A DNA stretch of 64,000 bases from an uncultured Colwellia sp. (GTDB lineage Bacteria > Pseudomonadota > Gammaproteobacteria > Enterobacterales > Alteromonadaceae): positions 21,978 to 85,977 of the forward strand of contig CAXBEX010000004.1 in the NCBI GenBank assembly GCA_963974965.1, written 5' to 3'. This document shows positions 31,579 to 57,988 of the stretch, in pieces. The position numbers and the translations under genes are program-made. Numbering within the stretch: position 1 is the stretch's first letter; the number at the start of each line of letters is the position of its first letter. The notes under the pieces are model-generated. The model did no database searches, was not told the origin of the DNA, and saw nothing but the letters and a program-made list of their open reading frames with translations.

Positions 31579-32919
31579 ATGAAAGTCACAGTTTTTGGTA
31601 TTGGTTATGTTGGTTTAGTTCAGGCCGCTGTTTTAGCATCTGTTGGTCATGATGTGGTGTGTGTTGATATTGACCAAACTAAAGTTGATAACCTTAAAAA
31701 AGGCGAGATCCCAATTTATGAACCCGGTTTAACACCACTTGTAGAAGAAACCTATAAAAATGGATTACTAAACTTTACTACTGATGCAAAAGCAGGTGTT
31801 GAGCATGGTGAAGTTCAATTTATTGCCGTAGGCACTCCGCCAGATGAAGATGGCTCTGCTGATTTAAAGTATGTATTAACGGTTGCACAAACCATCGCAA
31901 CCTACATGACTAACCCTAAAATTGTAATAGATAAGTCAACTGTTCCAGTTGGTACTGCAGATAAGGTAACCGACAAAATAGCCTCAGTTCTAGCATCAAG
32001 AAAAGTAGACATTGAATTTAACGTAGTATCAAACCCAGAATTTTTAAAAGAAGGCGCAGCAGTTAGTGACTGCATGAAGCCTGACCGTATTGTAGTAGGT
32101 ACTGATAGCGAAGCTTCACGAGCTGTAATGCGCGAACTATATGCGCCATTTAATCGTAATCATGATCGTATGATATTTATGGATGTACGATCAGCTGAGC
32201 TAACTAAATACGCAGCAAACTGCATGTTAGCAACCAAAATTAGTTTTATGAATGAAATGTCTAATTTAGCTGAGTTATTAGGCGCCGATATTGAAGCTAT
32301 ACGTCATGGCATAGGTTCAGATTCACGCATTGGCTATCAATTTATTTATCCTGGCTGTGGTTATGGCGGTTCGTGTTTCCCTAAAGATGTACAAGCATTA
32401 GTACGAACTGCTCACGGAGTTGAATATAAACCCGTTTTATTAGAAGCTGTTGAAAGTGTTAACTACGCTCAAAAACAAAAATTATTTAAAAATCTAAATA
32501 CCTATTTCAATGGTGATTTATCAGGTAAAACCGTTGCAGTTTGGGGCTTATCATTCAAACCACAAACCGATGATATGCGTGATGCATCTTCAATGGTATT
32601 AATGGAGTCTTTATGGGCTGCTGGCGCAAAAGTACAAGCATATGATCCAGAAGCAATGGAGGAATGCCAACGTATTTATGGCGTAAGAGATGATTTATCA
32701 CTGGTTGGTACAAAAGAGTCGGCTTTAAATGGGGCTGATGCTTTAGTAGTTTGTACAGAATGGAGCCAATTTAGAGCACCAGATTTTGACTTAATTGAAA
32801 AAGCACTATCACACAAAGTGATTGTTGATGGTCGTAATCTTTACGACCCAGCATTACTTAAGCAGCGTGGTTTTGCTTATTACGGTATTGGTCGTGGTGA
32901 GAGTATTCAAAACGTATAA
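31579..32919 (+). CDS. ugd: UDP-glucose 6-dehydrogenase
   Basis: [21 protein letters not shown], catalytic [15 protein letters not shown]. Confidence 0.97.
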
Positions 32920-32927
32920 TGTCTGTA

Positions 32928-33224
32928 CTTCGACAAGCTCAGTATAGACGGGACTCGCTGTCTGTCTTGAACCGTGACCGTTCGCTCTGAGCTGTCGAAG
33001 GCTTTAAACCGTTCGCTCTGAGCTATCGAAGGCTTTAAACCGTTCGCCCTGAGCCTATCGAAGGCTTTGAGCCATTCGCCCTGAGCCTATCGAAGGCTTT
33101 GAGCCATTCGCTCTGAGCTGTCGAAGGCTTTAAACCGTTCGCCCTGAGCCTGTCGAAGGCTTTAAACCGTTCGCCCTGAGCCTGTCGAAGGCTTTGAGCC
33201 GTTCGCCCTGAGCCTGTCGAAGGG
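32928..33224. repeat. CTTCGACAAGCTCAG-family element with one left arm and an 8-unit tandem array of 31-32-bp right arms
   Basis: Left arm CTTCGACAAGCTCAG..ACGG at 32928. Units CC(G/A)TTCGC(T/C)CTGAGC(C)T(G/A)TCGAAGGCTTT(AAA/GAG) start at 32978, 33009, 33040, 33072, 33104, 33135, 33167 and 33199. Confidence 0.95.
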
Positions 33225-33252
33225 AATGAATCTTAAATATTAGGAAATAATA

Positions 33253-34257
33253 GTGAAATTTTTAGTGACCGGCGCGGCTGGCTTTATAGGTTTTCATGTA
33301 GTACAACGCTTATGTGAACAAGGTCATGAAGTTATCGGTATTGATAACTTAAATGACTATTACGATGTTAATTTAAAATTGGCACGCTTAGATGAGCTTA
33401 AAGAATACAAATTATTTAAATTCATCAAGCTAGATCTTGCTGACCGAGAAGGCATTGCGCAATTATTTTCTCAACAGAAGTTTGAGCGAGTAATACATTT
33501 AGCCGCACAGGCAGGGGTTCGCTACTCTATTGATAACCCAATGGCTTATGCTGACTCTAACTTAGTTGGTCATTTAACCATATTAGAAGGTTGTCGCCAT
33601 AATAATGTTCAGCATTTAGTTTACGCTTCATCAAGCTCTGTATATGGCTTAAACAGCAAAACCCCTTTTGCAACATCAGACAGCGTTGATCACCCTATTT
33701 CATTGTATGCCGCAACTAAAAAATCAAATGAATTAATGTCGCATACCTATTCACATTTATATGGTATTCCAACAACAGGCTTAAGATTTTTCACTGTTTA
33801 TGGCCCGAGGGGTCGACCAGACATGGCTTTATTCAAATTTACTAAAGCAATAATTAATGGTGAAAGTATTGATGTATATAATAATGGTGATATGCGAAGA
33901 GACTTTACCTACATAGATGATATTGTGGAAGGCATTATTAGAATTCAAGATGTCATTCCACAAAAAAATAATGCTTGGAAAATTGAGTCTGGCTCTGCTG
34001 CTGCCAGCTCAGCCCCTTATAAAATATTCAATATAGGTAATGGTAACCCAGTTAAGCTGCTAGATTTTATTGAGTCTTTAGAAAGTTCTCTGGGCATAAA
34101 AGCAACTAAAAATTTAATGCCAATGCAACCAGGCGATGTTTATCAAACTTATGCCGATGTTGAAGACCTATTTAGTATTACAAAATATAAACCTTCAATG
34201 ACTTTGGAAAAAGGTGTCAAAGAGTTTGTAGATTGGTATAACGGTTTTTATTCATAA
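33253..34257 (+). CDS. NAD-dependent epimerase, UDP-glucuronate 4-epimerase type
   Basis: TGAAGFIG, HLAAQAGVRYS, ASSSSVYG, YAATK, FFTVYGP.GRPDMA, PMQPGDV; GTG start. Confidence 0.92.
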   Translation: MKFLVTGAAGFIGFHVVQRLCEQGHEVIGIDNLNDYYDVNLKLARLDELKEYKLFKFIKLDLADREGIAQLFSQQKFERVIHLAAQAGVRYSIDNPMAYADSNLVGHLTILEGCRHNNVQHLVYASSSSVYGLNSKTPFATSDSVDHPISLYAATKKSNELMSHTYSHLYGIPTTGLRFFTVYGPRGRPDMALFKFTKAIINGESIDVYNNGDMRRDFTYIDDIVEGIIRIQDVIPQKNNAWKIESGSAAASSAPYKIFNIGNGNPVKLLDFIESLESSLGIKATKNLMPMQPGDVYQTYADVEDLFSITKYKPSMTLEKGVKEFVDWYNGFYS

Positions 34258-34289
34258 CTCCTTACCTGCATATTTTTTAACTATTACCG

Positions 34290-34306
34290 TGTCAGATATT
34301 TTTACA
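34290..34306. promoter_or_regulatory. Enhancer-binding-protein site (TGT-N11-ACA), candidate PrsR box
   Basis: TGTCAGATATTTTTACA, about 65-80 bp upstream of the sigma54 -24 element. Confidence 0.6.
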
Positions 34307-34368
34307 TGTTTCAAATAAAGAAACATAAAGCGATGACAATAACACCAATTAACAATGATTTACATATT

Positions 34369-34384: not shown

Positions 34385-34443
34385 TATATTAATACAGAAA
34401 CGAATCTTAACTGGTCGCAGTTATATAACATATAGGATATAAC

Positions 34444-35436
34444 ATGAATAAATTAAATAAAATTTTATGCGCTGTGGCTCTAGCCTTTGTAGGTAGTGTT
34501 GCAAATGCAGGCTACTTCCAATTAAACGTTGGCAATAATGGCTATGACGTAGATGCACCAACATGTTTGGAAGCTTTTGGTAGTGCTACTTATTGTGCTA
34601 ACCCTGCCAACGCAGGAATTATTGCTACTGTTATTGCAAACGCTACAGTAACAAACGGTAACGGCGATGCAAATTCGCAGACTGGTTCTTTTACCGAGTT
34701 TGGCTTTAGTCAATTATTAGGCACATCAATTTATGACTTTAGTAACAATAGTATTTTGGGTGATTTTTATGACACCAACATTACTAGCGAATTACTTGCC
34801 GCTGGCATAACTGATGGAGTTAGTGGTCTAGCGTTAGATGGCTTAACAAATGTAACTCTAAATTATCCATCTACGGGTCAAATGGATTTAGATGCATTGT
34901 CACCATTAGCACCACCACTGAATGGAACAGATAATGAAGGCTTTTTAGCTGCTTGGGAATTGAACACTCAATTCTTATTTGAAGGTACTTTAACAGCGAC
35001 AGGTCCAGTTTATACTGGTGGCTTCTTTGAAGTTTGGTTCCAAGACTTAGATAATGCTGCAAATAACTTTTTAGGCTTTAAGGGTGAGGTTGTTGGCTCT
35101 AATTTACAAGCCGCTAACTTAGATATCTTCTTGAAAATCACTGAAGCGACTCAAGGCTTCTTATTTGATGGAGCAACTGAGAATGGTGTGTTTACAGATG
35201 TTTATGATATCATCGCTCAAACTGGTGGTTATAGTATGGTGATTGATACAAATGTTAACCCGCCAATCCCTACTCTTGATTCTCTTTTATTAGTACAAGG
35301 TGATCAACAGCAATTCAGTGTTGTACGTCAAGCATCTTTAGATGGTTCAGTAAATGCTGTTTCGGAACCGTCAACACTAGCGGTATTAGGGTTAGGTTTA
35401 CTGGCTTTTGGCGCATCACGTCGTCGTAAAGCATAA
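34444..35436 (+). CDS. PEP-CTERM (VSEP variant) exosortase-target surface protein, possibly PepA-like
   Basis: Signal peptide (ANA), Gly/Thr/Asn/Asp-rich body, C-terminal VSEPSTLAVLGLGLLAFGASRRRKA. Confidence 0.92.
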   Translation: MNKLNKILCAVALAFVGSVANAGYFQLNVGNNGYDVDAPTCLEAFGSATYCANPANAGIIATVIANATVTNGNGDANSQTGSFTEFGFSQLLGTSIYDFSNNSILGDFYDTNITSELLAAGITDGVSGLALDGLTNVTLNYPSTGQMDLDALSPLAPPLNGTDNEGFLAAWELNTQFLFEGTLTATGPVYTGGFFEVWFQDLDNAANNFLGFKGEVVGSNLQAANLDIFLKITEATQGFLFDGATENGVFTDVYDIIAQTGGYSMVIDTNVNPPIPTLDSLLLVQGDQQQFSVVRQASLDGSVNAVSEPSTLAVLGLGLLAFGASRRRKA

Positions 35437-35457
35437 CTTGACAAAATACAACTTAAT

Positions 35458-35570: not shown

Positions 35571-38105
35571 ATGTTTAAATTTAGGTTAATTCTCATCACA
35601 TGCTTATTTGTTACTTCCTGTAGTAAGCAGGTTTCCGTAGAACAATTAATCGATCAAGCTAATGAGGCACTAATTAATGGAGATAATGCTACCGCTATAA
35701 TTCATTTAAAAAGAGCATTACGCCGAGAGAATGGCTCTATTGACGCTCATTTTTTACTTGGTAAATTATATTTAGAAAATGGTGATTTTTTATCTGCTCA
35801 AAAAGAAATTGAACGCGCCTTGAGCCTTTCAACTAATAATGAAGGCTATATTACAGATTATTTTAGAGTACTAAACGAAACTGAAAATGAAAGTACAGTG
35901 CTGGATTTTTATAAAAAACAAGAAGCGCTTACTGATAGTGCAAAGTTACATGCTGCATATTCAGCCCTTAAAGTAAATGATATGGGGCTATTCGAGAAAA
36001 TATCACAACAAGTCAACACGAAAAACTTAACAACCCAAGAAGCTAAATTTCATAGATTACTATTGCTAGCGAGCAAACAAGATAGTGTTGCAATTCAAAG
36101 TGAGTTTTCCACACATTTAAAAAAAGATCACATCATAGTTGAAGGGTTAGAACTACTAGGGCACCTTTTCTCTAGAGATAAAAAATACGCTTTAGCTGTG
36201 CGGGCTTATAAAGCGGCTTATCATTTAAGACCTAAAAATAATGTACTGAAAATTTTAATTGCTCAAAACTTAATACAAGGTAACAATTTTAGTGATGCAA
36301 AACCTTATATAAAAGAGTTGTTAACTCAATTTCCAAATCACGGATACTCTCATCAGCTCGCGGCTCAAGTTGCAATAAATGATAGCGATTTTCAACTCGC
36401 TAAATTACACGCCACTAAAGCAATTTTATCAGGATTAAATTCAAACATAAACACTGTAATAGCAGGATTATCTTCATACCAGCTTGGCATGTACGAACAA
36501 GCAAGATCATATTTACTATCCATATCAAGAGAGCTACCAACATCACACCCCATACAAAAAGTACTTGCAGCAACCAGCTTAAAGCTAGGGTTTACTAATG
36601 AGGCGGTAGAACAACTCTCTGACATCTCCTTAATTACAGATAACGACTTTGACTTAATCGCCTCTGCTAGCATCAATTTGATTCAAAATAACCAAGCTGA
36701 CAAAGCAAATGAGTTATTAAGTAAAATAGCAAGTCCTGATGATACCAACAATGCTAATTTGCTCAGTAAAGTTGGAGTTTTAAAACTTTCTGCACAAGAC
36801 ATTTCTGGTATGGGTTTTTTGTACAAGGCAATAAGAATTGATGGGGATAGCTACTCAGCAAAAACAATGCTAATTTCATCTTTTCTTAGCACAAATAAAA
36901 ATAAAGAAGCTAAAAGTCAAGTGATTAAATGGCTAACGAAAACCCCTGAAGATACTGCACTTTTAAACATGCTAGCGTATATTGAAATAAAAAATCAAAA
37001 CCATAAAGAAGCCAAGATAATTTTCACTCAAATAATAACTATTGAGCCGACTAATATTAAAGCTAATATGTTTTTTGGTGTAACTGAATTCAAACAAGAA
37101 AATTTTCAAACGGCGATAAAATCATTCAATACTATAGTTCAGAAACATCCTAACTATTTACCTGCATTGCTTGGTCTTTACTTATCAGAAAAGTCATCTG
37201 GTGATACAACTCAATCAATTAAATTAATCACTTCTCAAGCTAAGGAAGACTCTCGTATTAAGTTATTGTTAGCTAAAATATATATAACAGAACACCAATA
37301 TATTGATGCGGTTGCAGTATTAAACACATTCAAGAGTCCAAGTATTATTGCCCAAATAGAAGATTTAAAGAGTTCTGCCTATATTGCTTTATATGATGAG
37401 GAAAATGCACTGACCGCGATTAGCAATTGGCGAAAAGTAGATCCGTCTAGTGAAAGGGCATTAATACTTAAGCTATCTATTTTAGAGTTAAATAAATCTC
37501 ACGAGCTAGCATTACAAGAGATTAGCTCCTTTAAAAGGAACAATCCTTACTCCTTGAAATTAGATCTACTTGAGATAAACTTTCAATTACTTGCAAATCA
37601 GGTAAGTAAAGCTGTTGAGTTACTTGATAAATTGAAGGAAAAAAATGTTAATACGACTCTGCTTTTACCATTAGAAGCTAGATCTAAATACCAGCTAGCA
37701 AACTATAAAGTAGCTCTCCCTTTGTTAGTAACGAGTTATGAAAATGATCCAAGTAGTATCTTTGCAAGTCTTATATACACAAGTTTAGTAAAGTTAAACA
37801 AAATAAATGAAGCTGTTACTTTCTTAGAAAAAAGAGTAACAGACTTTAGTGCTGATACTAAATCACGCCTATTTCTTGCAGATACACTCAGTAAAATAGA
37901 TAAAAATAAAGCTTTAGAGCATTTTTACATACTTAATGAACAGCTTGAAAATAATCTCATGGTTTTGAATAATATTGCTTGGCTTTTACATGAGCAAGGA
38001 AAAAATAAAGAAGCGCTTCCATATGCACAAAAGGCGTTAGATATTGCTCCTACTAATCTTCAACTACAAGATACCATTAATCAGATAAAGGCTGCTATAC
38101 AATAA
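35571..38105 (+). CDS. PrsT-like TPR lipoprotein, copy 2
   Basis: Lipobox FVTSC, TAIIHLKRAL...AHFLLGKLYL.NGD..SAQKE, ends LNNIAWLL...DT; 844 aa. Confidence 0.82.
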   Translation: MFKFRLILITCLFVTSCSKQVSVEQLIDQANEALINGDNATAIIHLKRALRRENGSIDAHFLLGKLYLENGDFLSAQKEIERALSLSTNNEGYITDYFRVLNETENESTVLDFYKKQEALTDSAKLHAAYSALKVNDMGLFEKISQQVNTKNLTTQEAKFHRLLLLASKQDSVAIQSEFSTHLKKDHIIVEGLELLGHLFSRDKKYALAVRAYKAAYHLRPKNNVLKILIAQNLIQGNNFSDAKPYIKELLTQFPNHGYSHQLAAQVAINDSDFQLAKLHATKAILSGLNSNINTVIAGLSSYQLGMYEQARSYLLSISRELPTSHPIQKVLAATSLKLGFTNEAVEQLSDISLITDNDFDLIASASINLIQNNQADKANELLSKIASPDDTNNANLLSKVGVLKLSAQDISGMGFLYKAIRIDGDSYSAKTMLISSFLSTNKNKEAKSQVIKWLTKTPEDTALLNMLAYIEIKNQNHKEAKIIFTQIITIEPTNIKANMFFGVTEFKQENFQTAIKSFNTIVQKHPNYLPALLGLYLSEKSSGDTTQSIKLITSQAKEDSRIKLLLAKIYITEHQYIDAVAVLNTFKSPSIIAQIEDLKSSAYIALYDEENALTAISNWRKVDPSSERALILKLSILELNKSHELALQEISSFKRNNPYSLKLDLLEINFQLLANQVSKAVELLDKLKEKNVNTTLLLPLEARSKYQLANYKVALPLLVTSYENDPSSIFASLIYTSLVKLNKINEAVTFLEKRVTDFSADTKSRLFLADTLSKIDKNKALEHFYILNEQLENNLMVLNNIAWLLHEQGKNKEALPYAQKALDIAPTNLQLQDTINQIKAAIQ

Positions 38106-40470: not shown

Positions 40471-40472
40471 TT

Positions 40473-46687: not shown

Positions 46688-46733
46688 CTTAATACTTCAG
46701 ATATTTTAACCATTTAATCTCTAAGGTAATATC

Positions 46734-50123: not shown

Positions 50124-50140
50124 ATATAGATCACTTCTAA

Positions 50141-51637
50141 CTATTTTCTAAAAGGTGATAAAAATAATTTTTTATGTTCTGGTTCAAAATGAACAAAAAA
50201 GCTATAAACAAAAAAGACAACCAACACAGTAATACTGAAACCAGCTAATTCAACATAATTGGTGATTTGAACGTCGATATATGAAAGTCCTAAATAGAAC
50301 AGAATCACACTCAGAACCGGATATAAACAAGAGGTGATCATATAGTTTAGATAGTTAGTATTTAACTCTTTACAAGTAAAATAGGGGACGGCAATAACAT
50401 TAATAATAAGAATTGGAATGGTGGTACCTAGAGCAACACCAATAATTCCCCAGATAGGCCCTAGATACAAACTTAGCCCCAAATTAGCTACGGCTTCAAT
50501 ACTTAATAAAATCGCCAAAATCTTATGTTTACTTAGCCCTTTTAAAATACCGTGAGCAATTAACTGCGCCAAAAAGAAGAAGTAACCGACTAACAAAATT
50601 TGTAATACTTGCCCTGAGGGGCCCTTATATTGCTCGCCCATCCACATACCAATAAAGTCACTACCAGCAAAGTACAAAACTAAAAATACGGGCGTACAGA
50701 GTAATATGGCATATTTAGTACCTATTTTGTACATTGTAGAATTATTTTCGTTTTTACCCAAGGCATCTTGAGCACTAATAATAGGTAATAACACCGCGAT
50801 TATTGCCCAGATAAATTGTTCTAAGTATTGCATTAGCATGGTAGGAATTGCATAAAAGGTAACTTGACTTACATCTAAGATCGCTCCGATAACAATCGAG
50901 TCAGTGTAGAACACTATTTTCATTGCTATTGAAATAATAAAACCATAAACGCTGTAATTATAAAGCTGCTTAAAGCTTTCTTTATTGATATCTTCAATCG
51001 TAAAATGTAAAAACGAGGCAAGCTTTTTTATTGTGAAATACTGTAAAGTGAATTTCGTCGAATTAATAACAAGTTGTAATACAGCAATAGCGAGTAATGA
51101 ATGCCCTTTCAATAGTAAAATAACAATAATTATGTTTTTAATGATGTTCAGTGTAATGGCAATAATGTTGACTTCTAAAAAGCGACCGACTGCTTTTAAT
51201 GACCCCAAAAAAACACTAAAAATCAAATTCAAGGCTAAGTCGATACCTACTATTAAAAACACAAAGTATAAATAACGCTGATCAAATTGGGTTATTTCAA
51301 ATATATCTTTAAAATACACAGCAAAAATAGCACAAAAAATCACAACTACGAGCGCTATTATTGAGAAAAAGGCAAATGATGTGCTGAATATTTTATTTGC
51401 ACTATTGTAATCATTTAGCGCTTTATATTTAGAAATAAATCTTACAATTGCCCCATTTACGCCAAAATCTAATATGGTGAAATAACTAGTTAATGAAACA
51501 ATTAACACCCATATCCCATAGGTTTCATTACCTAATTGGTTAACCAGTATTGGGCTAACAATAAAGGCTACCACGACGCTTATGAATAAATTACTCCAGT
51601 TGGAAAATATATTTTTTGCTATTCTATTAATTTTCAA
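50141..51637 (-). CDS. wzx: Wzx-type oligosaccharide flippase
   Basis: About 12-14 TM helices; LGNETYGIWVL, DFGVNGAIVRF, TDSIVIG. Confidence 0.88.
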   Translation of the reverse strand: MKINRIAKNIFSNWSNLFISVVVAFIVSPILVNQLGNETYGIWVLIVSLTSYFTILDFGVNGAIVRFISKYKALNDYNSANKIFSTSFAFFSIIALVVVIFCAIFAVYFKDIFEITQFDQRYLYFVFLIVGIDLALNLIFSVFLGSLKAVGRFLEVNIIAITLNIIKNIIIVILLLKGHSLLAIAVLQLVINSTKFTLQYFTIKKLASFLHFTIEDINKESFKQLYNYSVYGFIISIAMKIVFYTDSIVIGAILDVSQVTFYAIPTMLMQYLEQFIWAIIAVLLPIISAQDALGKNENNSTMYKIGTKYAILLCTPVFLVLYFAGSDFIGMWMGEQYKGPSGQVLQILLVGYFFFLAQLIAHGILKGLSKHKILAILLSIEAVANLGLSLYLGPIWGIIGVALGTTIPILIINVIAVPYFTCKELNTNYLNYMITSCLYPVLSVILFYLGLSYIDVQITNYVELAGFSITVLVVFFVYSFFVHFEPEHKKLFLSPFRK

Positions 51638-51648
51638 GCCCTCTACTT

Positions 51649-52581
51649 TTATATCTGATTATTTTTTAGCTTTTTAATACTGTTATTGATTCTCCTCCCA
51701 AGTAAGCACCTTAAGATTTGTATATAAGACTTAGTCTGTATTACATTAAACTTTATCGAATTTAAAAACAGTCCTATTGCTGATTTATAATTAGTTTGTG
51801 AAAAGCAACGCATACCTAATTTATAATTATATATAGACATTACTTTTCTCCATAATGGTGGATTTAAATTACCATTATGCCCTAAGTGCATGGTTATCAA
51901 TTTAATTATACAATCGTCCATTAAATTTGATTCTAGCGTTATATTAGAATCGTGTCTTCTATAGCGACATAATGGTTTTGCCACATAATAAACAGGCCCC
52001 AGCAATGATAGTTTTAATCTTAAATCAACATTTTCTGATCCTGCTAAGTCAATATTAAAACCTCCAACTTCAATCATTTTCTTTTTAGTAACCATCACAC
52101 TCCCTCCAGATAGTTCAAAGGAAGATAACCACAACTTATTGTAAATATTTCCTGTCATATACTCACTAGATTCAACAATTTTTAGAATTTTATTTTTGTT
52201 ATTCACAATATAGTAATCACAGTATACAAAACCAGCATTTGGGTACTGCTTATATAATTTCACTTGTTCTTCTATTTTATTTTTCTCGTATAAATCGTCA
52301 CTATCCAAGAATGCAATTAAATCACCTGTAGCACTTTCGATGCCTTTATTTCGTGCGGTTGAAGCTCCTGCATTTTTTTGACTCAACGTTTTTATTTTAT
52401 CAGGGTACTTATTAGCATAATCGTTAGCAATATCAAGAGATGTGTCACTAGAGCCGTCATCAATAATAATAAGTTCAATATTATCGTATGTTTGGTCCAA
52501 AGCAGAATTTATAGCTTCTGCCAAATATTTTTGCCTGTTGTAAACAGGCATAATGATCGATACTTTCATTCTACTTCTCAC
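51649..52581 (-). CDS. GT2 glycosyltransferase
   Basis: IMPVYN, IDDGSSD, NAGASTARN.GI, FLDSDD. Confidence 0.92.
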   Translation of the reverse strand: MRSRMKVSIIMPVYNRQKYLAEAINSALDQTYDNIELIIIDDGSSDTSLDIANDYANKYPDKIKTLSQKNAGASTARNKGIESATGDLIAFLDSDDLYEKNKIEEQVKLYKQYPNAGFVYCDYYIVNNKNKILKIVESSEYMTGNIYNKLWLSSFELSGGSVMVTKKKMIEVGGFNIDLAGSENVDLRLKLSLLGPVYYVAKPLCRYRRHDSNITLESNLMDDCIIKLITMHLGHNGNLNPPLWRKVMSIYNYKLGMRCFSQTNYKSAIGLFLNSIKFNVIQTKSYIQILRCLLGRRINNSIKKLKNNQI

Positions 52582-53689
52582 TTATCTTATGGTAAATATT
52601 TGAATAGGAATTACTCATTACTTTGTTTGTAAATACCCCAAGAAAACGTTGATAACTGTTTTCGCCAAACTTATTTCGTAACTCTTTATCCCTTACCAGT
52701 TCTAACATACTGTCTGTGAATGGCTGTAGTTCTCTGTTAGGTGTAACAAATCCATTATAATAATGTTGTATCACTTCAGGATTTCCACCTGCATTGGTTA
52801 CCACACAAGGCTTACCCAATGACATAGCTTCAAGTAATGTCATTGATGTACCTTCACTTAATGACGACAATAAAAAAACATCCATCAAAGACATATAGTT
52901 AACCGGTTGAGTAATATAACCAGTAAAAATAACCGAGTCTTTAATATTGAGTTTTTTAGTTAGCAGCTCTAACTTCTCACGTTCCTCACCGTCACCTACA
53001 ATAAATAACTTACAATTTGAATTTTGAAGAAGTACTTGATGAAAGGCATTAATAAGTAATGTTTGATTTTTGATCGGATCCAACCGTGCAACGGTGCCAA
53101 ATACGACAGTGTTTTGATTAATGTTGTACTGTTCATGTAATGCAGAAACCGCTTCAAGTTGTGGTTTTTGCGGAGCAATGCCATTGTAAACAACAGCTAT
53201 TCTTTTTGATTTTAAATATTCAAATTCCACTAACGCCTGCTTTGTTGCTTCAGAAATAGCGGTGATATAGGAGGTAAAATAAGACAATAACGGATTAATC
53301 AATCTTCGTTTCCAACTGCCTGAATCTGGATAAAAACGTCCATGCTCAGTAAATATTACTTTAACATTCAAAAATAAACTGGCAAAAACACCGTATAGCC
53401 AAGGGGTGTATTGATGACAGTGTATTACATCAATTTTATTCTTTTTAATGTACTGACGTATTTTTTTAATTAGAACTCGATCAAAGCCATTCTTCCGTTG
53501 AAATGAGTCGATTTTAATTCCGCTATTGATTAATAGTTGCCCAAAAGGTCCAATAGGTTGTTCAATACACAATATCGATACTTCAAATTGAGTAGTGTCT
53601 GTGGCGTCTATTAAGTTTTTAATAACTTGCTCTGTACCACCAATACGCATGTCAAACGTGACATGTAGTACTTTAATTGGTCTGTGCAT
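52571..53689 (-). CDS. GT4 glycosyltransferase
   Basis: GGTEQV, HCHQY, TEHG, VARLDPIKN, SEGTSMTLLEAM, GGNPEV. ATG 53689 with GGAGG RBS. Confidence 0.92.
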   Translation of the reverse strand: MHRPIKVLHVTFDMRIGGTEQVIKNLIDATDTTQFEVSILCIEQPIGPFGQLLINSGIKIDSFQRKNGFDRVLIKKIRQYIKKNKIDVIHCHQYTPWLYGVFASLFLNVKVIFTEHGRFYPDSGSWKRRLINPLLSYFTSYITAISEATKQALVEFEYLKSKRIAVVYNGIAPQKPQLEAVSALHEQYNINQNTVVFGTVARLDPIKNQTLLINAFHQVLLQNSNCKLFIVGDGEEREKLELLTKKLNIKDSVIFTGYITQPVNYMSLMDVFLLSSLSEGTSMTLLEAMSLGKPCVVTNAGGNPEVIQHYYNGFVTPNRELQPFTDSMLELVRDKELRNKFGENSYQRFLGVFTNKVMSNSYSNIYHKISEK

Positions 53690-54974
53690 CAACGCCTCCT
53701 CCTTCTTTTTCAGCAAGCTCCTTATTCACTTGATTTAAATTTGTAACATTAATTAATAATAATAAATACAGCATTTCAGTAATCATTAAGTTAAGAAAAA
53801 TGGCACAGATAAAAAACCCAATAGTTGATACGAATAGGCCATTACAAACATTAATGTTAAAGGCATTTTTACTTTTTGCTCGAATGTATTTATTGGTTTT
53901 ATAAAAGTTAACAAAAAACCATAAATAGATTAAACCGGCTAAAACCCCAGACTGTGTGGTGAATTGAATTAATGTATTATGGGCAACCTGTACGCGGCCT
54001 TCTATGTATTTCAATCCTGCAGTTTGATATTGTTCAATTCCAACACCTAAAATGGGATAATCTTTTATCATCTCCCAACCCGCTGACCAAGTAACCAACC
54101 TTGGATTCAATGGTTTCTCTCTGTCGTCTATTTGGGCAACTTCAACGGTGCTAGTAGCGCGTTCATAGATGGCACCGCCATAATTAACAATAGCGAATAA
54201 TAATCCTGCCATCACCATATAACCAAATGCTTTTGAATAGCTTTTAAACGCTAAAACTAAAGTTATGATCAATAGGGATATTAATGCCCCTCTTGAACCA
54301 ATTAAAAATAAAGCATGCCATGCTAATGGGACACATAATAATAAAGTATATTTTGATATCTTATTTTTTATTGCCGAGGCAATAAAATACATCAATGGAA
54401 TAGAGGTTATAAACAATACGGAGAACACATTTTCGTCTCTATACAAGCCCGGCCCTTTTAATCGGCCATTATCTGTGTATTGCCACATTTCGCCTGTAAA
54501 GTACACTTTGTTTGACCAAAGTGTATACACAATACCAGTAAATATTAACATGCCAACAACATACATAAGTTTACGGTTGTCGGTAATTAGTAATGTTGAG
54601 ATGCAATAGAATAAAATGGTTTTATTAAAAATTGTCAAAGCTTCGGCTGGCGGGATAATTTGACCAACATAAATGCCATAAAATGGCGACATAAAATGAG
54701 AAATATTTACTATCAAGCACAAGAAAAGTAGCATTTTTGTCTGTTTATTATTGAGTAAACTAAAATCTACTTTTTTTTGTACAACTGCAACTAAAAGACC
54801 AAAAATTGTAGAAACTGCAACAAACATTGCAATACGGCTATCTTGAAATATCCATGGCCAAAAACTTTTAGGAGAGAAAACACCTAAAAAATAATAGGCG
54901 ATGACACCTATCCAAGGGTTAACAATCGCAGCGATACACGTAACTAACGTAATAAATATTAATAAAATTTCCAT
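53673..54974 (-). CDS. O-antigen ligase/Wzy-like membrane protein (exosortase A-associated type)
   Basis: Multi-TM; NPWIGV, DENVFS, SRGALI, RLVTW.AG..M..DYP..GVG, AHNT; ATG overlaps the asnB-like stop. Confidence 0.82.
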   Translation of the reverse strand: MEILLIFITLVTCIAAIVNPWIGVIAYYFLGVFSPKSFWPWIFQDSRIAMFVAVSTIFGLLVAVVQKKVDFSLLNNKQTKMLLFLCLIVNISHFMSPFYGIYVGQIIPPAEALTIFNKTILFYCISTLLITDNRKLMYVVGMLIFTGIVYTLWSNKVYFTGEMWQYTDNGRLKGPGLYRDENVFSVLFITSIPLMYFIASAIKNKISKYTLLLCVPLAWHALFLIGSRGALISLLIITLVLAFKSYSKAFGYMVMAGLLFAIVNYGGAIYERATSTVEVAQIDDREKPLNPRLVTWSAGWEMIKDYPILGVGIEQYQTAGLKYIEGRVQVAHNTLIQFTTQSGVLAGLIYLWFFVNFYKTNKYIRAKSKNAFNINVCNGLFVSTIGFFICAIFLNLMITEMLYLLLLINVTNLNQVNKELAEKEGGGVDAQTN

Positions 54975-56878
54975 TACAATAAATTTGTTTCCATATACTG
55001 ACACCACCACAACTCAAACATCAACATGCTCCATAATACAGTTGAGTTGTCTTTATTTTTTGATACATGTTCAGACCATAATTTATTAATTTCTGTTTCT
55101 TTAAATATTTGAATTATCCCCCGCGGATTTTTTACTAATTTGTCTTCAGCAATGTCTTTCAATTCATTACGCAACCAATACGCTAATGGCACAGAGAACC
55201 CCATTTTTTTACGATATAAAATGTTATCAGGTAAATACTTTTTAAATGCTTCTTTAAGTAAGTATTTTTTTTCACCTTTATTAAATTTGAATTTTGACGG
55301 CACTGTTGCGGCAAACTCAATTAATTTATAATCTAAAATAGGTGCGCGCACTTCTAACGAATTTGCCATGCTCATCCGGTCAACTTTTACCAAAATCCCA
55401 CCCGGTAAATAGGTTTTCATGTCGGTATAAAGTATTTTCGATAAGTGGTCTTGCCCATCGGCTTCATTATATTTAGCTATCGTTTGTGTTGATGGGTGAT
55501 AGCTTCCTAACTGTGCTTTTGTTTGCTCCGTCGCCAGTGTTAACCATGTCTGGTCAGTGATCATTGAGTTGGTAATATAAAAGCCCATTGCGGGGTCAAC
55601 ACTTAAACTTGTTAACAATGACTTCGCTTTTTTAAATGGCGTTGAATTCACTTTCCCTGCGGCGTTAGCCAAACTAGGAAATATTTTTTTTCTTACCCAT
55701 GTTGGAAATTTGTTACGTAATTGATTCTCAACATCATCAACTGAATATTTTGAATATCCTGCGAACACTTCATCACCACCATCACCCGCTATAGCGACGG
55801 TTACTTTCTCACGAGCTAATTTAGACACGAAGTAAGTTGGTACTAAGGATGGATCGGCAAAGGGTTCATCAAAAAATGAAACAATATGTTGTAATGAGTC
55901 TGCTACATTATCATGCACTGTTAATTCATGATGATTAGTTTTATATTGTTCGGCAACTTGCTTAGCAAATTCTGTTTCATTAAACTTTTCTTCATCAAAA
56001 CCAATTGAACAAGTAGTAATGGCTCCGCCATTGGTTTTCTCTGCGTGTTCTGCCATTAATGCCACAATACCGCTAGAGTCAACACCACCACTTAAAAAGG
56101 CTCCTAAAGGCACATCTGACATCATACGTTTAGCAGTACAGCTACTAGCTAGCTGTTGCAATTCAGTAATTAACTCCGACTCTGAATGAGTTGTTTGATT
56201 AGCAAACGATATATCCCAGTATTGCTTTTTTTGCAATCCATTTCGGTTTACTAATAAATAATGACCTGGTTCAAGTTTGTGAATGCCTTGAAAAATAGTT
56301 TTAGGATCGGGAATATACTGATATGCAAAAAAGTCATGCACTGCGTCTAATCGAATATTTTTAGGTATAGACGGTAACGCCAACATAGCCTTTAATTCAG
56401 AAGCAAATACAATGTCGTTATTGAAAAAACTATAATAGAGTGGTTTTTTTCCAATTCGATCACGGGCAACAAACAGCTCTTTTTTTGTATTGTCCCAGAT
56501 AGCAAACGCAAACATACCATTAATTTTGTCTAATAACTTAATACCCATCGATTGGTATAAGGCCAATATTACTTCGGTATCTGTATCCGTTTTAAAGTCA
56601 ACACCTTGTTGTTTTAATTCTTCTCGTAACTCTACAAAGTTATAGATTTCACCATTAAAGGAGATAACAATTTGTTCATCGACGGATTTCATCGGTTGAA
56701 TGCCAGCGTCAGACAAGTCAATAATAGCTAAACGCCTATGGCATAAACCAACATGCTCAGTTAGATATTCACTGCCTGCATCTGGGCCTCTATGAAAAAT
56801 AGCTTCACCCATTTTTTTAAGCGTATCAAGTGAGCCTTGTTGGTGATGAAATTGAGTAAAACCTGCTATGCCACACAT
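54974..56878 (-). CDS. Asparagine synthetase-like glutamine amidotransferase (exosortase A-associated)
   Basis: N-terminal MCGIAG, HRGPD, RRLAIID, FNGEIYN, LSGGVDSS, GDGGDEVFAGY, KVDRMSMA.SLEVR.P. Confidence 0.93.
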   Translation of the reverse strand: MCGIAGFTQFHHQQGSLDTLKKMGEAIFHRGPDAGSEYLTEHVGLCHRRLAIIDLSDAGIQPMKSVDEQIVISFNGEIYNFVELREELKQQGVDFKTDTDTEVILALYQSMGIKLLDKINGMFAFAIWDNTKKELFVARDRIGKKPLYYSFFNNDIVFASELKAMLALPSIPKNIRLDAVHDFFAYQYIPDPKTIFQGIHKLEPGHYLLVNRNGLQKKQYWDISFANQTTHSESELITELQQLASSCTAKRMMSDVPLGAFLSGGVDSSGIVALMAEHAEKTNGGAITTCSIGFDEEKFNETEFAKQVAEQYKTNHHELTVHDNVADSLQHIVSFFDEPFADPSLVPTYFVSKLAREKVTVAIAGDGGDEVFAGYSKYSVDDVENQLRNKFPTWVRKKIFPSLANAAGKVNSTPFKKAKSLLTSLSVDPAMGFYITNSMITDQTWLTLATEQTKAQLGSYHPSTQTIAKYNEADGQDHLSKILYTDMKTYLPGGILVKVDRMSMANSLEVRAPILDYKLIEFAATVPSKFKFNKGEKKYLLKEAFKKYLPDNILYRKKMGFSVPLAYWLRNELKDIAEDKLVKNPRGIIQIFKETEINKLWSEHVSKNKDNSTVLWSMLMFELWWCQYMETNLL

Positions 56879-56935
56879 GATGTTCGCTTCCTTAACCTAT
56901 ACATAAAATCTTTTATTTAGCCTTGAAATGATTTT

Positions 56936-57988
56936 TTATAAACTAATATAACGTCTTAATTTAGGTCCAATACTATTAGCCAATGTTAGTGGTAACTTTT
57001 TCCAAATGCTTTCCACTAATGACTTTATTGGACTATTTGAGGCTACGACTTCTAATTGTGAATTAGATTGTAAGTTGTCGTCACGCCACTGTAAAAGAAC
57101 AGGTTTAGCACCCCATTGTTGTTTAAATCGAAACGTACCTTCATTAAACGTAGATCGGCCAAAATCAAACTCTGTACACCCTTGGTCGGTAACAAATTTT
57201 AACAGTGCCCAGTACAACATCATATTGGGAGATAAGCGGTTATATTCTGCTCGGGTAGACGCCCATGGAATGCAGGCTTTATCATTGGAAAGAAGCACGA
57301 CTCCAGCACCTACAGGTATACCATCTAATTTAACAACCGCAATAATACATTGCTCTTTATATTGCTCACGGATAGATTCAATCCATTTCTTACTATGTAC
57401 TGGAGAACCTAATCTGAGCATGTTTTCACTAAATACTGCATAAAATTCATCAATAAACTGTTGGTTAGTCCCTAGCTCATACCTCAAACCGTTTTTTTCT
57501 GCTTTACGAATTTGACTACGCAATTTAGATTTAAAACCCGAGAACAACTCGTCACTTGTTGCAGGCAAAGGTAAAAGCATACTGACTTTTTTTCCCTCAA
57601 ACTGAGCATTATCGTTTATTCCAGAACGTTCACGATATTCAATAGATTTAGATTTTAGTTTCACCTTCAATTCAGTTGCTTTAGACTCTAAAGCAACTTG
57701 TATTTCGTTATCGTCAGCTAAACACCCACCAACATCACAAAATGGCAATGAACACAACAAGTTCCCTTTAAATGGAATGCGAATATTCACCAGCGGTAAA
57801 ACACCTACAATCTGTGAGTTTTGTTTTGCCACTAAATAATAAACTTTATGCTCATAAGCAGTTTCAATTGCCGCTAACCAAGCAAAAAGGTGATAAGGGC
57901 TATGTCCTACATGATGTTGAATGTATTGATCCCATAATATCGCCTCATCACTGTCGATTGCTTGAATAGTTAACTGAGAATTTATCAT
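56936..57988 (-). CDS. FemAB-like GNAT protein, PEP-CTERM system-associated
   Basis: SPYHLFAW, SLPFCDVGG, KLRSQIRKA, PNMMLYW, FDFGRS...GTFRFKQQWG. Confidence 0.88.
   Translation of the reverse strand: MINSQLTIQAIDSDEAILWDQYIQHHVGHSPYHLFAWLAAIETAYEHKVYYLVAKQNSQIVGVLPLVNIRIPFKGNLLCSLPFCDVGGCLADDNEIQVALESKATELKVKLKSKSIEYRERSGINDNAQFEGKKVSMLLPLPATSDELFSGFKSKLRSQIRKAEKNGLRYELGTNQQFIDEFYAVFSENMLRLGSPVHSKKWIESIREQYKEQCIIAVVKLDGIPVGAGVVLLSNDKACIPWASTRAEYNRLSPNMMLYWALLKFVTDQGCTEFDFGRSTFNEGTFRFKQQWGAKPVLLQWRDDNLQSNSQLEVVASNSPIKSLVESIWKKLPLTLANSIGPKLRRYISL

What the first reader, a model, noticed from the sequence alone, without database searches (positions are those of the whole stretch)
31579..57988. 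Gene set for amino-acid/amide-decorated uronic-acid EPS (possible cryoprotective polymer)
ugd and the UDP-glucuronate epimerase supply GlcA/GalA. The same locus encodes an AsnB-like amidotransferase (ATP-dependent carboxylate amidation), a FemAB-like protein (a family that uses aminoacyl-tRNA) and a CelD/BcsL GNAT. Colwellia psychrerythraea 34H is known to make polysaccharides whose galacturonic acid carries Thr or Ala amides and which inhibit ice recrystallisation; I do not know the responsible enzymes to be assigned. These genes are direct candidates, if the host is indeed Colwellia-like.
Basis: inference. Interest (0 to 1): 0.6.

Follow-up and report, generated by a model that had tools for sequence, protein, structure and literature searches.

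The report
Colwellia exosortase exopolysaccharide gene cluster
This stretch is the middle of a well-known kind of bacterial gene cluster (exosortase A / PEP-CTERM) that builds a uronic-acid-containing slime polysaccharide and ties proteins to it; its amino-acid-adding and amide-adding enzymes are standard parts of that system and most likely make a protein-anchoring sugar, not the antifreeze-like amino-acid decoration known from Colwellia strain 34H.

Summary
They are not a special cryoprotection set. They lie in a roughly 55-kb canonical XrtA/PEP-CTERM exopolysaccharide locus of a Colwellia. This locus runs about 18 kb past the window end.

FemAB (TIGR03019) and the amidotransferase (TIGR03108-like) are conserved core parts of XrtA systems, and a sugar deacetylase gene sits directly upstream of FemAB.

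The chemistry argues against amino-acid amides on uronate C6. Fem enzymes donate an aminoacyl group to an amine. This AsnB keeps its glutaminase, so it should make a primary amide. The closest studied system is the Wbp/Vim "linking sugar" pathway (VimE, VimA, WbpS).

Strain 34H, recognised as a 5,373,180-bp single contig, lacks orthologues of these genes. It has a separate Wzy-type locus with ugd, the epimerase, QuiNAc genes and two glutaminase-less AsnB-like genes. That locus fits its Ala-decorated EPS. This genome has no such genes.

The scan has met the same deacetylase/FemAB/AsnB module in exosortase loci of several other genomes. Verdict: an ordinary member of a known system, with an open biochemical question.

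The parts
24742..27513 (-). 923-aa TPR protein, PrsT-like; probable left edge of the locus
   Evidence: Pfam TPR families only. Same length as the PrsT copy beyond the window. 25% identical to a TPR gene at the edge of the Paraglaciecola locus. Not scored against TIGR02917.
27554..30393 (-). manB (27554-28942) and manC (28942-30393): GDP-mannose supply
   Evidence: NF011943 at 772 bits; TIGR01479 at 765 bits, above its cut-off.
31579..32919 (+). ugd, UDP-glucose 6-dehydrogenase (makes UDP-GlcA)
   Evidence: It is the only UDP-glucose-type dehydrogenase in the genome.
33253..34257 (+). UDP-glucuronate 4-epimerase (makes UDP-GalA)
34444..35436 (+). PEP-CTERM protein, a substrate of the exosortase
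   Evidence: PF07589 / TIGR02595 at the C-terminus; N-terminal signal-like segment.
35571..38105 (+). PrsT, the XrtA/PEP-CTERM system TPR lipoprotein
   Evidence: TIGR02917, 397 bits against a cut-off of 312.
38231..39322 (-). Second Acetyltransf_6 (CelD/BcsL-like, Fem-superfamily) protein
   Evidence: PF13480, E 3e-22. Orthologues lie on the same contigs as FemAB in Colwellia 75C3, C. echini, E2M01 and Paraglaciecola. What it transfers is unknown.
39514..43551 (+). Variable region, first part: two GT2 glycosyltransferases, a hexapeptide O-acetyltransferase and a 407-aa membrane-anchored protein of unknown function
   Evidence: Not matched in the FemAB-flanking 10 kb of three other Colwellia.
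44101..48590 (+). Variable region, second part: FkbH-like protein, HfsH-like oligosaccharide deacetylase and a 618-aa lipoprotein-like protein of unknown function
   Evidence: TIGR01686 at 252 bits; NF050820 at 142 bits, below its cut-off; no family for the third.
48813..55010 (-). APH-like kinase, Wzx flippase, GT2, GT4 (stp2-like) and a Wzy_C / O-antigen-ligase-like polymerase
   Evidence: TIGR03097 and TIGR03088 are hit below their cut-offs.
54974..56878 (-). AsnB-like glutamine-dependent amidotransferase of the TIGR03108 / WbpS family
   Evidence: TIGR03108 at 699 bits against a cut-off of 817. MCGI N-terminus; HRRL, NGEIYN and DTEV glutamine-site motifs; SGGVDSS PP-loop. The aspartate-binding region of E. 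coli AsnB is not conserved. A housekeeping asnB lies elsewhere in the genome.
56936..57988 (-). FemAB-family XrtA/PEP-CTERM-associated protein (VimA-like)
   Evidence: TIGR03019, 297 bits against a cut-off of 260. AlphaFold2 model with pLDDT 92; top eleven fold matches are aminoacyl-tRNA-dependent transferases, led by FemX at TM 0.71/0.74. Invariant F288-K289-x-x-W292-G293.
57988..58992 (-). WalW-type polysaccharide-deacetylase-family protein, translationally coupled to FemAB (1-nt overlap)
   Evidence: No Pfam or NCBIfam hit. Homologues are named polysaccharide deacetylase / WalW by NCBI. Model with pLDDT 77; best fold matches are CE4-type deacetylases including ArnD, at TM 0.5-0.6.
58997..60115 (-). 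Conserved GT4 glycosyltransferase
   Evidence: 87-90% identical in other Colwellia and 62% in Paraglaciecola.
60116..62710 (-). 864-aa PcRGLX-like (rhamnogalacturonan exo-lyase-like) protein, conserved next to xrtA
   Evidence: PF21346 and PF19501. Conserved in Colwellia, Paraglaciecola and a Rhodocyclaceae locus.
62707..64000 (-). xrtA-epsI exosortase A (494 aa); its 5' part lies beyond the window end
   Evidence: TIGR03109, 291 bits against a cut-off of 208, on the full gene.

Best explanation
The region is the central part of a canonical exosortase A (XrtA)/PEP-CTERM exopolysaccharide locus of a Colwellia.

Shown here:
- The full XrtA gene set is present: XrtA-EpsI, PrsT, PrsK/PrsR, priming transferase, export protein, chain-length determinant, tyrosine kinase, outer-membrane protein, ATPase, XrtA deacetylase, FemAB, amidotransferase and PEP-CTERM proteins.
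- The locus has two modules. One block is conserved: export protein, priming GT, deacetylase, XrtA, PcRGLX-like protein, GT4, WalW deacetylase, FemAB, AsnB, GT4. The other region is strain-variable and carries the remaining glycosyltransferases, Wzx, Wzy and modification genes.

Inferred:
- Ugd and the 4-epimerase supply UDP-GlcA and UDP-GalA, and ManB/ManC supply GDP-mannose. A Wzx/Wzy-type pathway then makes an acidic heteropolysaccharide.
- The conserved trio acts like the Wbp/Vim pathway of Porphyromonas and Tannerella. A cytoplasmic deacetylase frees the amine of an N-acetyl amino sugar. The FemX-fold enzyme acylates that amine with an amino acid from aminoacyl-tRNA, leaving a free alpha-amino group. 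The glutamine-dependent AsnB-like enzyme converts a uronate carboxyl into a primary amide.
- The aminoacyl sugar is then the likely nucleophile to which XrtA ligates cleaved PEP-CTERM proteins.

The locus is therefore not a maker of 34H-type uronate-C6 amino-acid amides.
For: - System membership. TIGR03109, 03006, 03013, 03027, 03007, 03018, 03016, 03015, 02917 and 03019 all score above their cut-offs. The genome holds five PEP-CTERM proteins, two of them in this locus.
- Core status of FemAB and AsnB. In 301 genomes of the class, 43 of 48 XrtA-positive genomes have FemAB above its cut-off, and one more misses by 0.5 bit. TIGR03108 is above its cut-off in 43 genomes and lies within 10 kb of FemAB in 32 of them.
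- Deacetylase coupling. The XrtA deacetylase sits directly upstream of FemAB on the same strand, with a gap of 70-260 bp, in 43 of 57 FemAB-positive genomes. The same holds in Desulfobacula and Gemmatimonadaceae loci. In Colwellia and Paraglaciecola, a WalW-type deacetylase-fold gene overlaps the FemAB start instead.
- FemAB fold. The top eleven matches are all aminoacyl-tRNA-dependent transferases: FemX, FmhB, FemA, and Sbb17/Sba18. The last two were solved in complex with streptothrisamine, whose amino-sugar amine they acylate (my recollection).
- AsnB. Cys2, the glutamine site and the PP-loop are kept, and the aspartate site is not.
- Published precedent. VimA matches TIGR03019, VimE is a CE4 deacetylase, and WbpS/WbqG belong to TIGR03108 and make the uronamide. 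The authors noted vimA/vimE/asnB homologues next to exosortases (PMC7468200).
- Modularity. The conserved block is 66-90% identical in three other Colwellia, and gene content differs after the GT4.

Some counts include the unpublished genomes G296 and G141. Without them, deacetylase adjacency is 42 of 55 and XrtA/FemAB co-occurrence is 42 of 47.
Against: - No experiment has assigned a function to FemAB or the amidotransferase in any XrtA system (PMC9850573 calls the mechanism open).
- The WbpA/B/E/D genes for a 2,3-diacetamido uronic acid are not in this locus: no DegT or Gfo/Idh/MocA gene was seen. The substrate sugar must therefore differ from the Porphyromonas linking sugar. The deacetylated sugar and the amidated uronate may also be different residues.
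- The amidotransferase scores below the TIGR03108 cut-off (699 against 817 bits).
- The WalW deacetylase assignment rests on a pLDDT-77 model with TM 0.5-0.6.
- Tandem-GNAT folds also include acyl-CoA users, which appear from rank 13.
Confidence: 0.6

Rival explanations
1. FemAB, the AsnB-like enzyme and/or the CelD-like GNAT attach Thr, Ala or other amino acids as amides to the C6 carboxyl of GalA/GlcA, giving a 34H-like ice-recrystallisation-inhibiting polymer.
For: - UDP-GlcA/UDP-GalA supply genes lie in the locus.
- An ATP-dependent carboxylate-adenylating enzyme is present whose aspartate site is not conserved.
- The host is a Colwellia.
- 34H polymers do carry Thr and Ala.
- AsnB-superfamily enzymes can use nucleophiles other than ammonia. 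The closest solved relative is a hydroxyamidotransferase, 7ylz.
Against: - Fem chemistry has the wrong polarity for this linkage (established from FemX and MprF; fold match).
- The AsnB-like enzyme keeps a full glutaminase domain with Cys2. It falls in the WbpS/WbqG family, which makes primary amides.
- Both genes are core XrtA genes across many lineages.
- 34H has no TIGR03019 match at E<=1e-30, and its exosortase is only 27% identical.
- 34H has a separate locus that fits its EPS better. This genome has no homologue of that locus's two AsnB-like genes.
- The one characterised uronate-C6 amidoligase, the Cj1438 C-terminal domain, is a different ATP-dependent enzyme.
Confidence: 0.07
2. The Fem-fold proteins are acyl-CoA-dependent N-acyltransferases. 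After de-N-acetylation they re-acylate the amino sugar with a non-amino-acid acyl group. The AsnB paralogue simply raises asparagine supply for Asn-rich PEP-CTERM proteins.
For: - Tandem-GNAT structures that use acetyl-CoA also match the model, though from rank 13 downwards.
- Acetyltransf_6 is annotated generically as a GNAT.
- The floc literature stresses the Asn richness of PEP-CTERM proteins and calls the genes asparagine synthetases.
Against: - The eleven best fold matches are all aminoacyl-tRNA users.
- The T. forsythia vimA swap changed the linked residue from Ser to Gly in P. gingivalis, showing that a TIGR03019-like enzyme selects the amino acid.
- The aspartate-binding region of AsnB is not conserved here, and a normal asnB exists elsewhere in the genome.
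Confidence: 0.2
3. The amidotransferase and FemAB act on the sorted proteins rather than on sugar. For example, they could amidate or extend the new C-terminus left by XrtA cleavage.
For: Strict co-occurrence with XrtA and its substrates. No sugar substrate has been shown.
Against: - Both proteins lack signal peptides and transmembrane segments; only one weak hydrophobic stretch was seen. They also need ATP, glutamine or aminoacyl-tRNA, so they work in the cytoplasm, whereas PEP-CTERM cleavage is expected at the periplasmic face (PMC1569441).
- The tight operon pairing with a sugar deacetylase points to a sugar substrate.
Confidence: 0.05

Closest known systems
XrtA/PEP-CTERM (EpsH) exopolysaccharide and protein-sorting system (Haft 2006; floc-formation loci of Zoogloea resiniphila and Aquincola tertiaricarbonis)
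   Same: The same defining gene set is present: XrtA-EpsI, PrsK/R/T, TIGR03013/03027/03007/03018/03016/03015/03006/03019, a TIGR03108-like amidotransferase and PEP-CTERM proteins.
   Different: - The gene order is the Alteromonadales variant. The XrtA deacetylase is 6 kb from FemAB, and a WalW-type deacetylase takes the upstream place.
- There is an extra Acetyltransf_6 gene.
- ugd and the epimerase are built into the locus.
- The amidotransferase scores below the TIGR03108 cut-off.
Wbp/Vim linking-sugar pathway of Porphyromonas gingivalis and Tannerella forsythia (VimE, VimA, WbpS; PMC7468200)
   Same: It has a CE4-type deacetylase, a TIGR03019-like Fem-fold transferase and a TIGR03108-family amidotransferase. 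Its product carries an N-aminoacyl group with a free amine and a primary uronamide, and serves a sortase-like enzyme as acceptor.
   Different: - That system serves the type IX secretion sortase PorU, not an exosortase.
- It starts from UDP-GlcNAc3NAcA made by WbpA/B/E/D, and these genes are not in this locus.
- Nothing has been shown experimentally for XrtA systems.
WbpS (P. aeruginosa O6) / WbqG (E. coli O121) uronamide-forming amidotransferases
   Same: AsnB-like, glutamine-dependent and placed in the eps_aminotran_1 family by Veith et al.. Here Cys2, the glutamine site and the PP-loop are all kept.
   Different: The sugar substrate here is unknown.
FemX of Weissella viridescens, and Sbb17/Sba18 aminoacyl-tRNA-dependent peptide synthases
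   Same: Same tandem-GNAT fold (TM 0.71/0.74 to FemX) without the FemA coiled coil. Sbb17/Sba18 were solved in complex with streptothrisamine, whose amino-sugar amine they acylate (my recollection); this is the type of acceptor proposed here.
   Different: Only 12-16% sequence identity. The acceptor is a polysaccharide precursor, not a peptidoglycan precursor or an antibiotic.
Cj1438 C-terminal ATP-dependent amidoligase of Campylobacter jejuni, and Alt (alanine transferase) of the Acinetobacter baumannii KL17 locus
   Same: These are the known or proposed enzymes for amides between a uronate C6 carboxyl and an amine other than ammonia.
   Different: Nothing here was tied to that chemistry: none of the ORFs scanned in the region (27 in the window, 12 in the locus extension) hit an ATP-grasp family, and the genome-wide ATP-grasp_4 scan gave only two weak hits, both on other contigs. 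No direct comparison with Cj1438C or Alt was run, and the enzyme family I recall for them is not confirmed.

Membership tests
XrtA/PEP-CTERM exosortase EPS system | Exosortase A with a fused EpsI domain | tested here: met
   TIGR03109 at 291 bits against a cut-off of 208; TIGR02914 EpsI domain at residues 340-470.
XrtA/PEP-CTERM exosortase EPS system | PEP-CTERM substrate proteins | tested here: met
   Five TIGR02595 matches in the genome. Two are in the locus: 34444-35436 and a PepA-like gene beyond the window.
XrtA/PEP-CTERM exosortase EPS system | PrsT TPR lipoprotein and the PrsK/PrsR sigma-54 two-component pair | tested here: met
   PrsT: TIGR02917 at 397 and 767 bits. PrsR and PrsK were identified at Pfam domain level only. 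They are 81% and 51% identical to the genes at the 34H position that corresponds to CPS_5030/5031. Not scored against TIGR02915/02916.
XrtA/PEP-CTERM exosortase EPS system | System-specific assembly and export set (TIGR03013, 03027, 03007, 03018, 03016, 03015, 03006) | tested here: met
   All are above their cut-offs, just beyond the window end.
XrtA/PEP-CTERM exosortase EPS system | System amidotransferase TIGR03108 | tested here: inconclusive
   Full-length match at E 6e-210, but 699 bits against a cut-off of 817. The gene sits next to FemAB, as in other Alteromonadales.
FemABX aminoacyl-tRNA-dependent transferases | Tandem-GNAT fold | tested here: met
   Model with pLDDT 92. FemX at TM 0.71/0.74, probability 1.00.
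FemABX aminoacyl-tRNA-dependent transferases | Catalytic Lys in the C-terminal F-K-x-x-(F/W)-G motif (FemX Lys305, recalled from the literature) | tested here: inconclusive
   F288, K289, W292 and G293 are invariant in 25 homologues. The residue-by-residue mapping onto FemX was not computed.
FemABX aminoacyl-tRNA-dependent transferases | Use of aminoacyl-tRNA as donor | not testable with these tools
   Needs an enzyme assay.
Wbp/Vim linking-sugar pathway | Deacetylase, TIGR03019-like transferase and TIGR03108-family amidotransferase together | tested here: met
   Genes at 57988-58992, 56936-57988 and 54974-56878 are contiguous. The family links are stated in PMC7468200.
Wbp/Vim linking-sugar pathway | WbpA/B/E/D genes for UDP-2,3-diacetamido-glucuronic acid | tested here: not met
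   No DegT aminotransferase or Gfo/Idh/MocA oxidoreductase is in the locus. The dehydrogenase is of the UDP-glucose type.
Wbp/Vim linking-sugar pathway | The aminoacyl sugar is the acceptor of a sortase-type transpeptidation | not testable with these tools
   Needs mass spectrometry of the C-termini of PEP-CTERM proteins.
Glutamine-hydrolysing asparagine synthetase (AsnB proper) | Cys nucleophile, glutamine site and PP-loop | tested here: met
   MCGI; HRRL, NGEIYN and DTEV; SGGVDSS.
Glutamine-hydrolysing asparagine synthetase (AsnB proper) | Aspartate-binding residues (E. coli AsnB Thr322/Arg325 region, recalled) | tested here: not met
   The aligned stretch reads differently, with no Arg at that place. 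A separate 559-aa asnB exists on contig 16.
Uronate-C6 amine/amino-acid amidoligases (Cj1438C type) | A homologous ATP-dependent amidoligase in the locus | tested here: not met
   ATP-grasp_4 was searched on my recollection that these enzymes are ATP-grasp; the papers read here do not name the fold. The search gave only two weak hits, on other contigs and below the cut-off. No ATP-grasp family was hit by any ORF scanned in the locus.

The most novel reading that the evidence does not exclude
The conserved operon pair deacetylase then FemAB, together with the WbpS-like amidotransferase, builds the acceptor sugar to which exosortase A ligates the cleaved C-terminus of PEP-CTERM proteins. That sugar would be an N-aminoacyl amino sugar with a free alpha-amine, with a uronamide on the same or a neighbouring residue. 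This would be the Gram-negative exopolysaccharide counterpart of FemABX and sortase on lipid II, and of VimE/VimA/WbpS and PorU in type IX secretion. It would answer what PEP-CTERM proteins are attached to, a question open since 2006. Veith et al. raised the possibility in 2020, but it has not been tested.
Probability: 0.3. Interest if true: 0.7.

Novelty: new member of a known kind. Interest (0 to 1): 0.3.

Why it matters
As it stands, this is one more example of a system described in 2006 and already named gene by gene in NCBI's family models.

Its value is as a tractable case. The host is a cultivable marine genus. In this locus the FemAB/deacetylase/amidotransferase trio, the uronic-acid supply genes and two PEP-CTERM substrates sit together. 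That makes it a good place to test what exosortase A attaches its substrates to.

The negative result also matters. These genes should not be taken as the makers of the antifreeze-like Thr/Ala amides of strain 34H. For that question, the two glutaminase-less AsnB-like genes in the Wzy-type locus of 34H are better candidates.

Tried and rejected
- ATP-grasp amidoligase. I looked for one that could make uronate-amino-acid amides. PF13535 gives only two weak hits, on other contigs.
- Second UDP-sugar dehydrogenase locus, on contig 5. It is an O-antigen-type locus with wecB/wecC and nonulosonic-acid genes, and has no amide-forming enzyme.
- Third AsnB-like gene of 34H, at 3.056 Mb. It has a Cys2 start but sits beside an integrase-like gene and no polysaccharide genes, so it was dropped.
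- Relation between the two Acetyltransf_6 proteins. Their similarity is only marginal (E 0.003 over 74 residues). The CelD-like one has no solved relative by sequence.
- Literature. No paper in the library holds PEP-CTERM, FemAB and exosortase together. None links uronic-acid alanine amides with ATP-grasp enzymes. The papers on the 34H EPS structure, the Aquincola RpoN study and the 34H genome are not held.
- The exact C6-amide linkage in 34H. This rests on my recollection of Carillo 2015 and Casillo 2017. The review read here says only that the polymers carry Thr and Ala.
- One Desulfobacter locus (L016) could not be used in the alignment because its reading frame contained stop codons.
- Cryoprotective function could not be addressed at all.

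Full report

- 31579-32919 has all three UDP-glucose/GDP-mannose dehydrogenase domains. It is closest to the UDP-glucose 6-dehydrogenases TuaD and AglM (459 and 381 bits). UDP-ManNAc dehydrogenase (191 bits) and TviB (77 bits) score far lower.
- 33253-34257 is an SDR epimerase. Its best solved relatives are a Klebsiella epimerase (548 bits) and the Bacillus cereus UDP-glucuronate 4-epimerase entries.
- 54974-56878 carries GATase and Asn_synthase domains and matches TIGR03108 full-length (E 6e-210). Its 699 bits fall below that model's cut-off of 817.
- 56936-57988 is TIGR03019, "FemAB family XrtA/PEP-CTERM system-associated protein" (297 bits against 260).
- 38231-39322 is an Acetyltransf_6 protein.

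The host is a Colwellia. FemAB is 79-83% identical to proteins of Colwellia sp. 75C3, C. marinimaniae MTCD1 and a Colwellia MAG.

**Context.** The span is the middle of a canonical XrtA/PEP-CTERM locus.

Inside the window:
- a PEP-CTERM protein (34444-35436)
- PrsT (35571-38105)
- Wzx, a Wzy_C/ligase-like protein, and GT2 and GT4 transferases
- a conserved GT4 (58997-60115)
- a PcRGLX-like 864-aa protein (60116-62710)
- the 3' part of xrtA-epsI

The window is contig 4, positions 21978-85977, of a 4.4-Mb genome. The next 18 kb of that contig hold:
- the rest of XrtA
- the XrtA deacetylase TIGR03006
- the priming transferase TIGR03013
- the export protein TIGR03027
- the chain-length determinant TIGR03007
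- the tyrosine kinase TIGR03018
- the outer-membrane protein TIGR03016
- the ATPase TIGR03015
- a second PrsT
- a PepA-like PEP-CTERM protein
- a sigma-54 response regulator and a histidine kinase

All the TIGR families score above their cut-offs. To the left lie manB/manC and a third PrsT-like TPR protein.

**FemAB and AsnB are core genes, not a Colwellia speciality.**

- In three other Colwellia and in Paraglaciecola, one block is conserved at 47-90% identity: export protein, priming GT, deacetylase, XrtA, PcRGLX-like protein, GT4, 334-aa protein, FemAB, AsnB, GT4. The genes after that block differ between strains.
- In a sample of 301 genomes of the class, FemAB is above its cut-off in 57 and XrtA in 48. 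Of the 48 XrtA-positive genomes, 43 also have FemAB, and one more misses the cut-off by 0.5 bit.
- TIGR03108 is above its cut-off in 43 genomes and lies within 10 kb of FemAB in 32 of them.
- In 43 of the 57 FemAB-positive genomes, the TIGR03006 deacetylase gene lies directly upstream of FemAB on the same strand, 70-260 bp away. The same adjacency is seen in Desulfobacula and Gemmatimonadaceae contigs.
- These counts include the unpublished genomes G296 and G141. Without them the counts are 42 of 55 for adjacency and 42 of 47 for co-occurrence. G039 contributes only sub-cut-off hits.
- In Colwellia the TIGR03006 gene is 6 kb away from FemAB. The gene whose stop overlaps the FemAB start (57988-58992) has no Pfam or NCBIfam match. 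Its homologues are named WalW / polysaccharide deacetylase. Its model (pLDDT 77) matches CE4-type deacetylases best, including the lipid-linked-sugar deformylase ArnD, at modest TM of 0.5-0.6. The deacetylase-then-FemAB pairing therefore appears to be kept.

**What the enzymes can do.**

- The FemAB model (pLDDT 92) matches FemX of Weissella (TM 0.71/0.74), S. aureus FmhB and FemA, and the aminoacyl-tRNA-dependent peptide synthases Sbb17/Sba18. MprF and acyl-CoA tandem GNATs come lower in the list. F288-K289-x-x-W292-G293 is invariant in 25 homologues.
- Fem enzymes and MprF transfer the aminoacyl moiety of aminoacyl-tRNA to an amine or hydroxyl (established knowledge). The amino acid ends up bound through its carboxyl and keeps a free amine. 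As I recall the primary papers, the 34H decoration is the opposite: the amino acid's amine is bound to the uronate C6 carboxyl. That linkage needs activation of the sugar carboxylate, as the Cj1438 C-terminal domain does with ATP (PMC11800397).
- The AsnB-like protein could in principle adenylate a uronate. However, it begins MCGI and keeps the glutamine-site motifs and the PP-loop, while the aspartate-binding stretch of E. coli AsnB is not conserved. A housekeeping asnB exists elsewhere in the genome.
- Veith et al. place P. gingivalis WbpS, P. aeruginosa WbpS and E. coli O121 WbqG in this same TIGR03108 family. They show or cite that these enzymes make the primary uronamide (PMC7468200).

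**Closest studied system.** The same paper shows that type IX cargo proteins are amide-bonded at their C-terminus to 2-N-seryl-3-N-acetylglucuronamide in P. gingivalis, or to 2-N-glycyl-3-N-acetylmannuronic acid in T. forsythia.

- VimE (CE4) is proposed to remove the 2-N-acetyl group.
- VimA, which matches TIGR03019, adds Ser or Gly; swapping vimA between the species swapped the residue.
- WbpS makes the amide.
- The authors noted vimA/vimE/asnB homologues beside exosortases and left the link untested.

The lead to this paper came from earlier notes of this scan on other genomes. I had reached the deacetylase/FemAB idea independently from synteny.

The trio here fits that scheme, but the WbpA/B/E/D genes are absent from the locus. 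The sugar involved must therefore be different. The floc-formation literature on Zoogloea and Aquincola confirms two points. XrtA-type clusters with "two asparagine synthetase genes" are needed for cell-bound EPS, and how PEP-CTERM proteins bind the polymer is unknown (PMC9012009 and PMC9850573).

**Test against strain 34H.**

- Among 55 Colwellia species genomes, 32 have TIGR03019.
- One genome without it is a single contig of 5,373,180 bp. 34H is the 5.37-Mb one-contig Colwellia (PMC7542103). The exosortase of this genome lies at 98.8% of the chromosome, and the PrsR/PrsK genes lie 40 kb further on. This matches CPS_4990 and CPS_5030/5031 in Haft's table.
- Its exosortase is generic: TIGR02602 at 283 bits, TIGR03109 at 157 bits against a cut-off of 208, and 27% identity to ours.
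- Only the module of priming GT, export protein, chain-length determinant, kinase, outer-membrane protein, ATPase, PrsR and PrsK is shared, at 45-83% identity.
- That locus has two distant PF13480 proteins and a Cys-less, divergent AsnB-like protein.

A better fit to the published 34H EPS lies elsewhere, at 579-599 kb. As I recall, that repeat is QuiNAc plus two GalA, each bearing Ala. The gene order in this locus is:

1. wza, wzb, wzc, wzx
2. a 518-aa Asn_synthase-only protein (SGGMDS motif, no glutaminase half)
3. a putative wzy
4. a GT4
5. a 486-aa Asn_synthase-only protein
6. a GT4
7. an SDR
8. a PglC-like transferase
9. ugd
10. a UDP-GlcA 4-epimerase (67% identical to the window's)
11. 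galU
12. a WbpM-like 4,6-dehydratase

That gives one priming transferase, two glycosyltransferases and two candidate amide ligases for a trisaccharide with two amides.

- The family of these AsnB-like proteins is small: 231 clusters at E<=1e-10 among 1.84 billion representatives.
- Among the 55 Colwellia genomes it is found only in 34H. It is absent from this window's genome.
- A 35%-identical homologue in an NCBI genome again sits with Wzx, a GT4, Bac_transf, a WbpM-like gene, ugd and an SDR epimerase.

This assignment is inference, not proof. It does move the 34H question away from the genes in this window.

**Verdict.** A uronic-acid polymer with amide and amino-acid groups is plausible. 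The predicted chemistry is an N-aminoacyl amino sugar plus a primary uronamide, made by standard XrtA parts. It is not 34H-type C6 amino-acid amides and not a cold-specific trait. The locus is a new member of a known kind. The open and interesting part is the untested idea that this module builds the exosortase acceptor.

Noticed in passing
Outside the window: loci L027, L028 and L029 (a Colwellia genome of one 5,373,180-bp contig, very probably strain 34H; chromosome positions 579,384-599,240): A Wza/Wzb/Wzc-Wzx locus holds two roughly 500-aa Asn_synthase-domain proteins that lack the glutaminase half, each next to a GT4. It also has a PglC-like transferase, an SDR, ugd, a UDP-GlcA 4-epimerase, galU and a WbpM-like dehydratase. 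This gene set fits the published 34H EPS (QuiNAc plus two Ala-amidated GalA). The two proteins are candidate uronate:amino-acid amide ligases with no curated family.
   Followed up: partly
L032:9001-10575 (NCBI record MVJM01000002.1): A 35%-identical homologue of the glutaminase-less AsnB-like protein again lies in a Wzx/GT4/Bac_transf/WbpM-like locus with ugd and an SDR epimerase. A homoserine-dehydrogenase-like gene sits directly downstream, which may hint at the amino acid being attached.
   Followed up: no
window 60116-62710 (-): An 864-aa PcRGLX-like (rhamnogalacturonan exo-lyase-like) protein without a signal peptide is conserved immediately downstream of xrtA, on the same strand, in Colwellia; a homologue also lies within 6 kb upstream of FemAB in Paraglaciecola (40% identity) and 1.3 kb downstream of it in a Rhodocyclaceae locus (34%), where no xrtA was found in the stretch read. 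No NCBIfam model covers it. A uronate-polymer lyase-like fold as a near-core XrtA gene is unexplained.
   Followed up: partly
Window 38231-64000 compared with L003-L006 and L023-L026: Exosortase loci in Colwellia are mosaics. The export/regulatory module is 45-83% identical between this genome and 34H, yet the exosortase itself (27% identity) and everything around it are of a different type. The region after the conserved GT4 also differs among close relatives.
   Followed up: partly
window 44101-45945 (+) and 48813-50123 (-): An FkbH-like protein (TIGR01686) with a long extra N-terminal region and an APH-like kinase lie in the variable part of the locus. Their substituents on the polymer are unknown. 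The FkbH gene is the subject of another first-reader note.
   Followed up: no
Own genome contig 5, positions 87,834-103,403 (L018): Three HipA-like kinase genes and a Fic/DOC gene lie among and beside the Wzz, wecB and wecC genes: one upstream of Wzz, the other two and the Fic gene between wecC and the nonulosonic-acid genes of an O-antigen-type locus.
   Followed up: no
window 21760-23514: A divergent polysaccharide deacetylase (PF04748) and a trypsin-like peptidase lie just upstream of the FeeM-like gene, at the left border of the locus.
   Followed up: no
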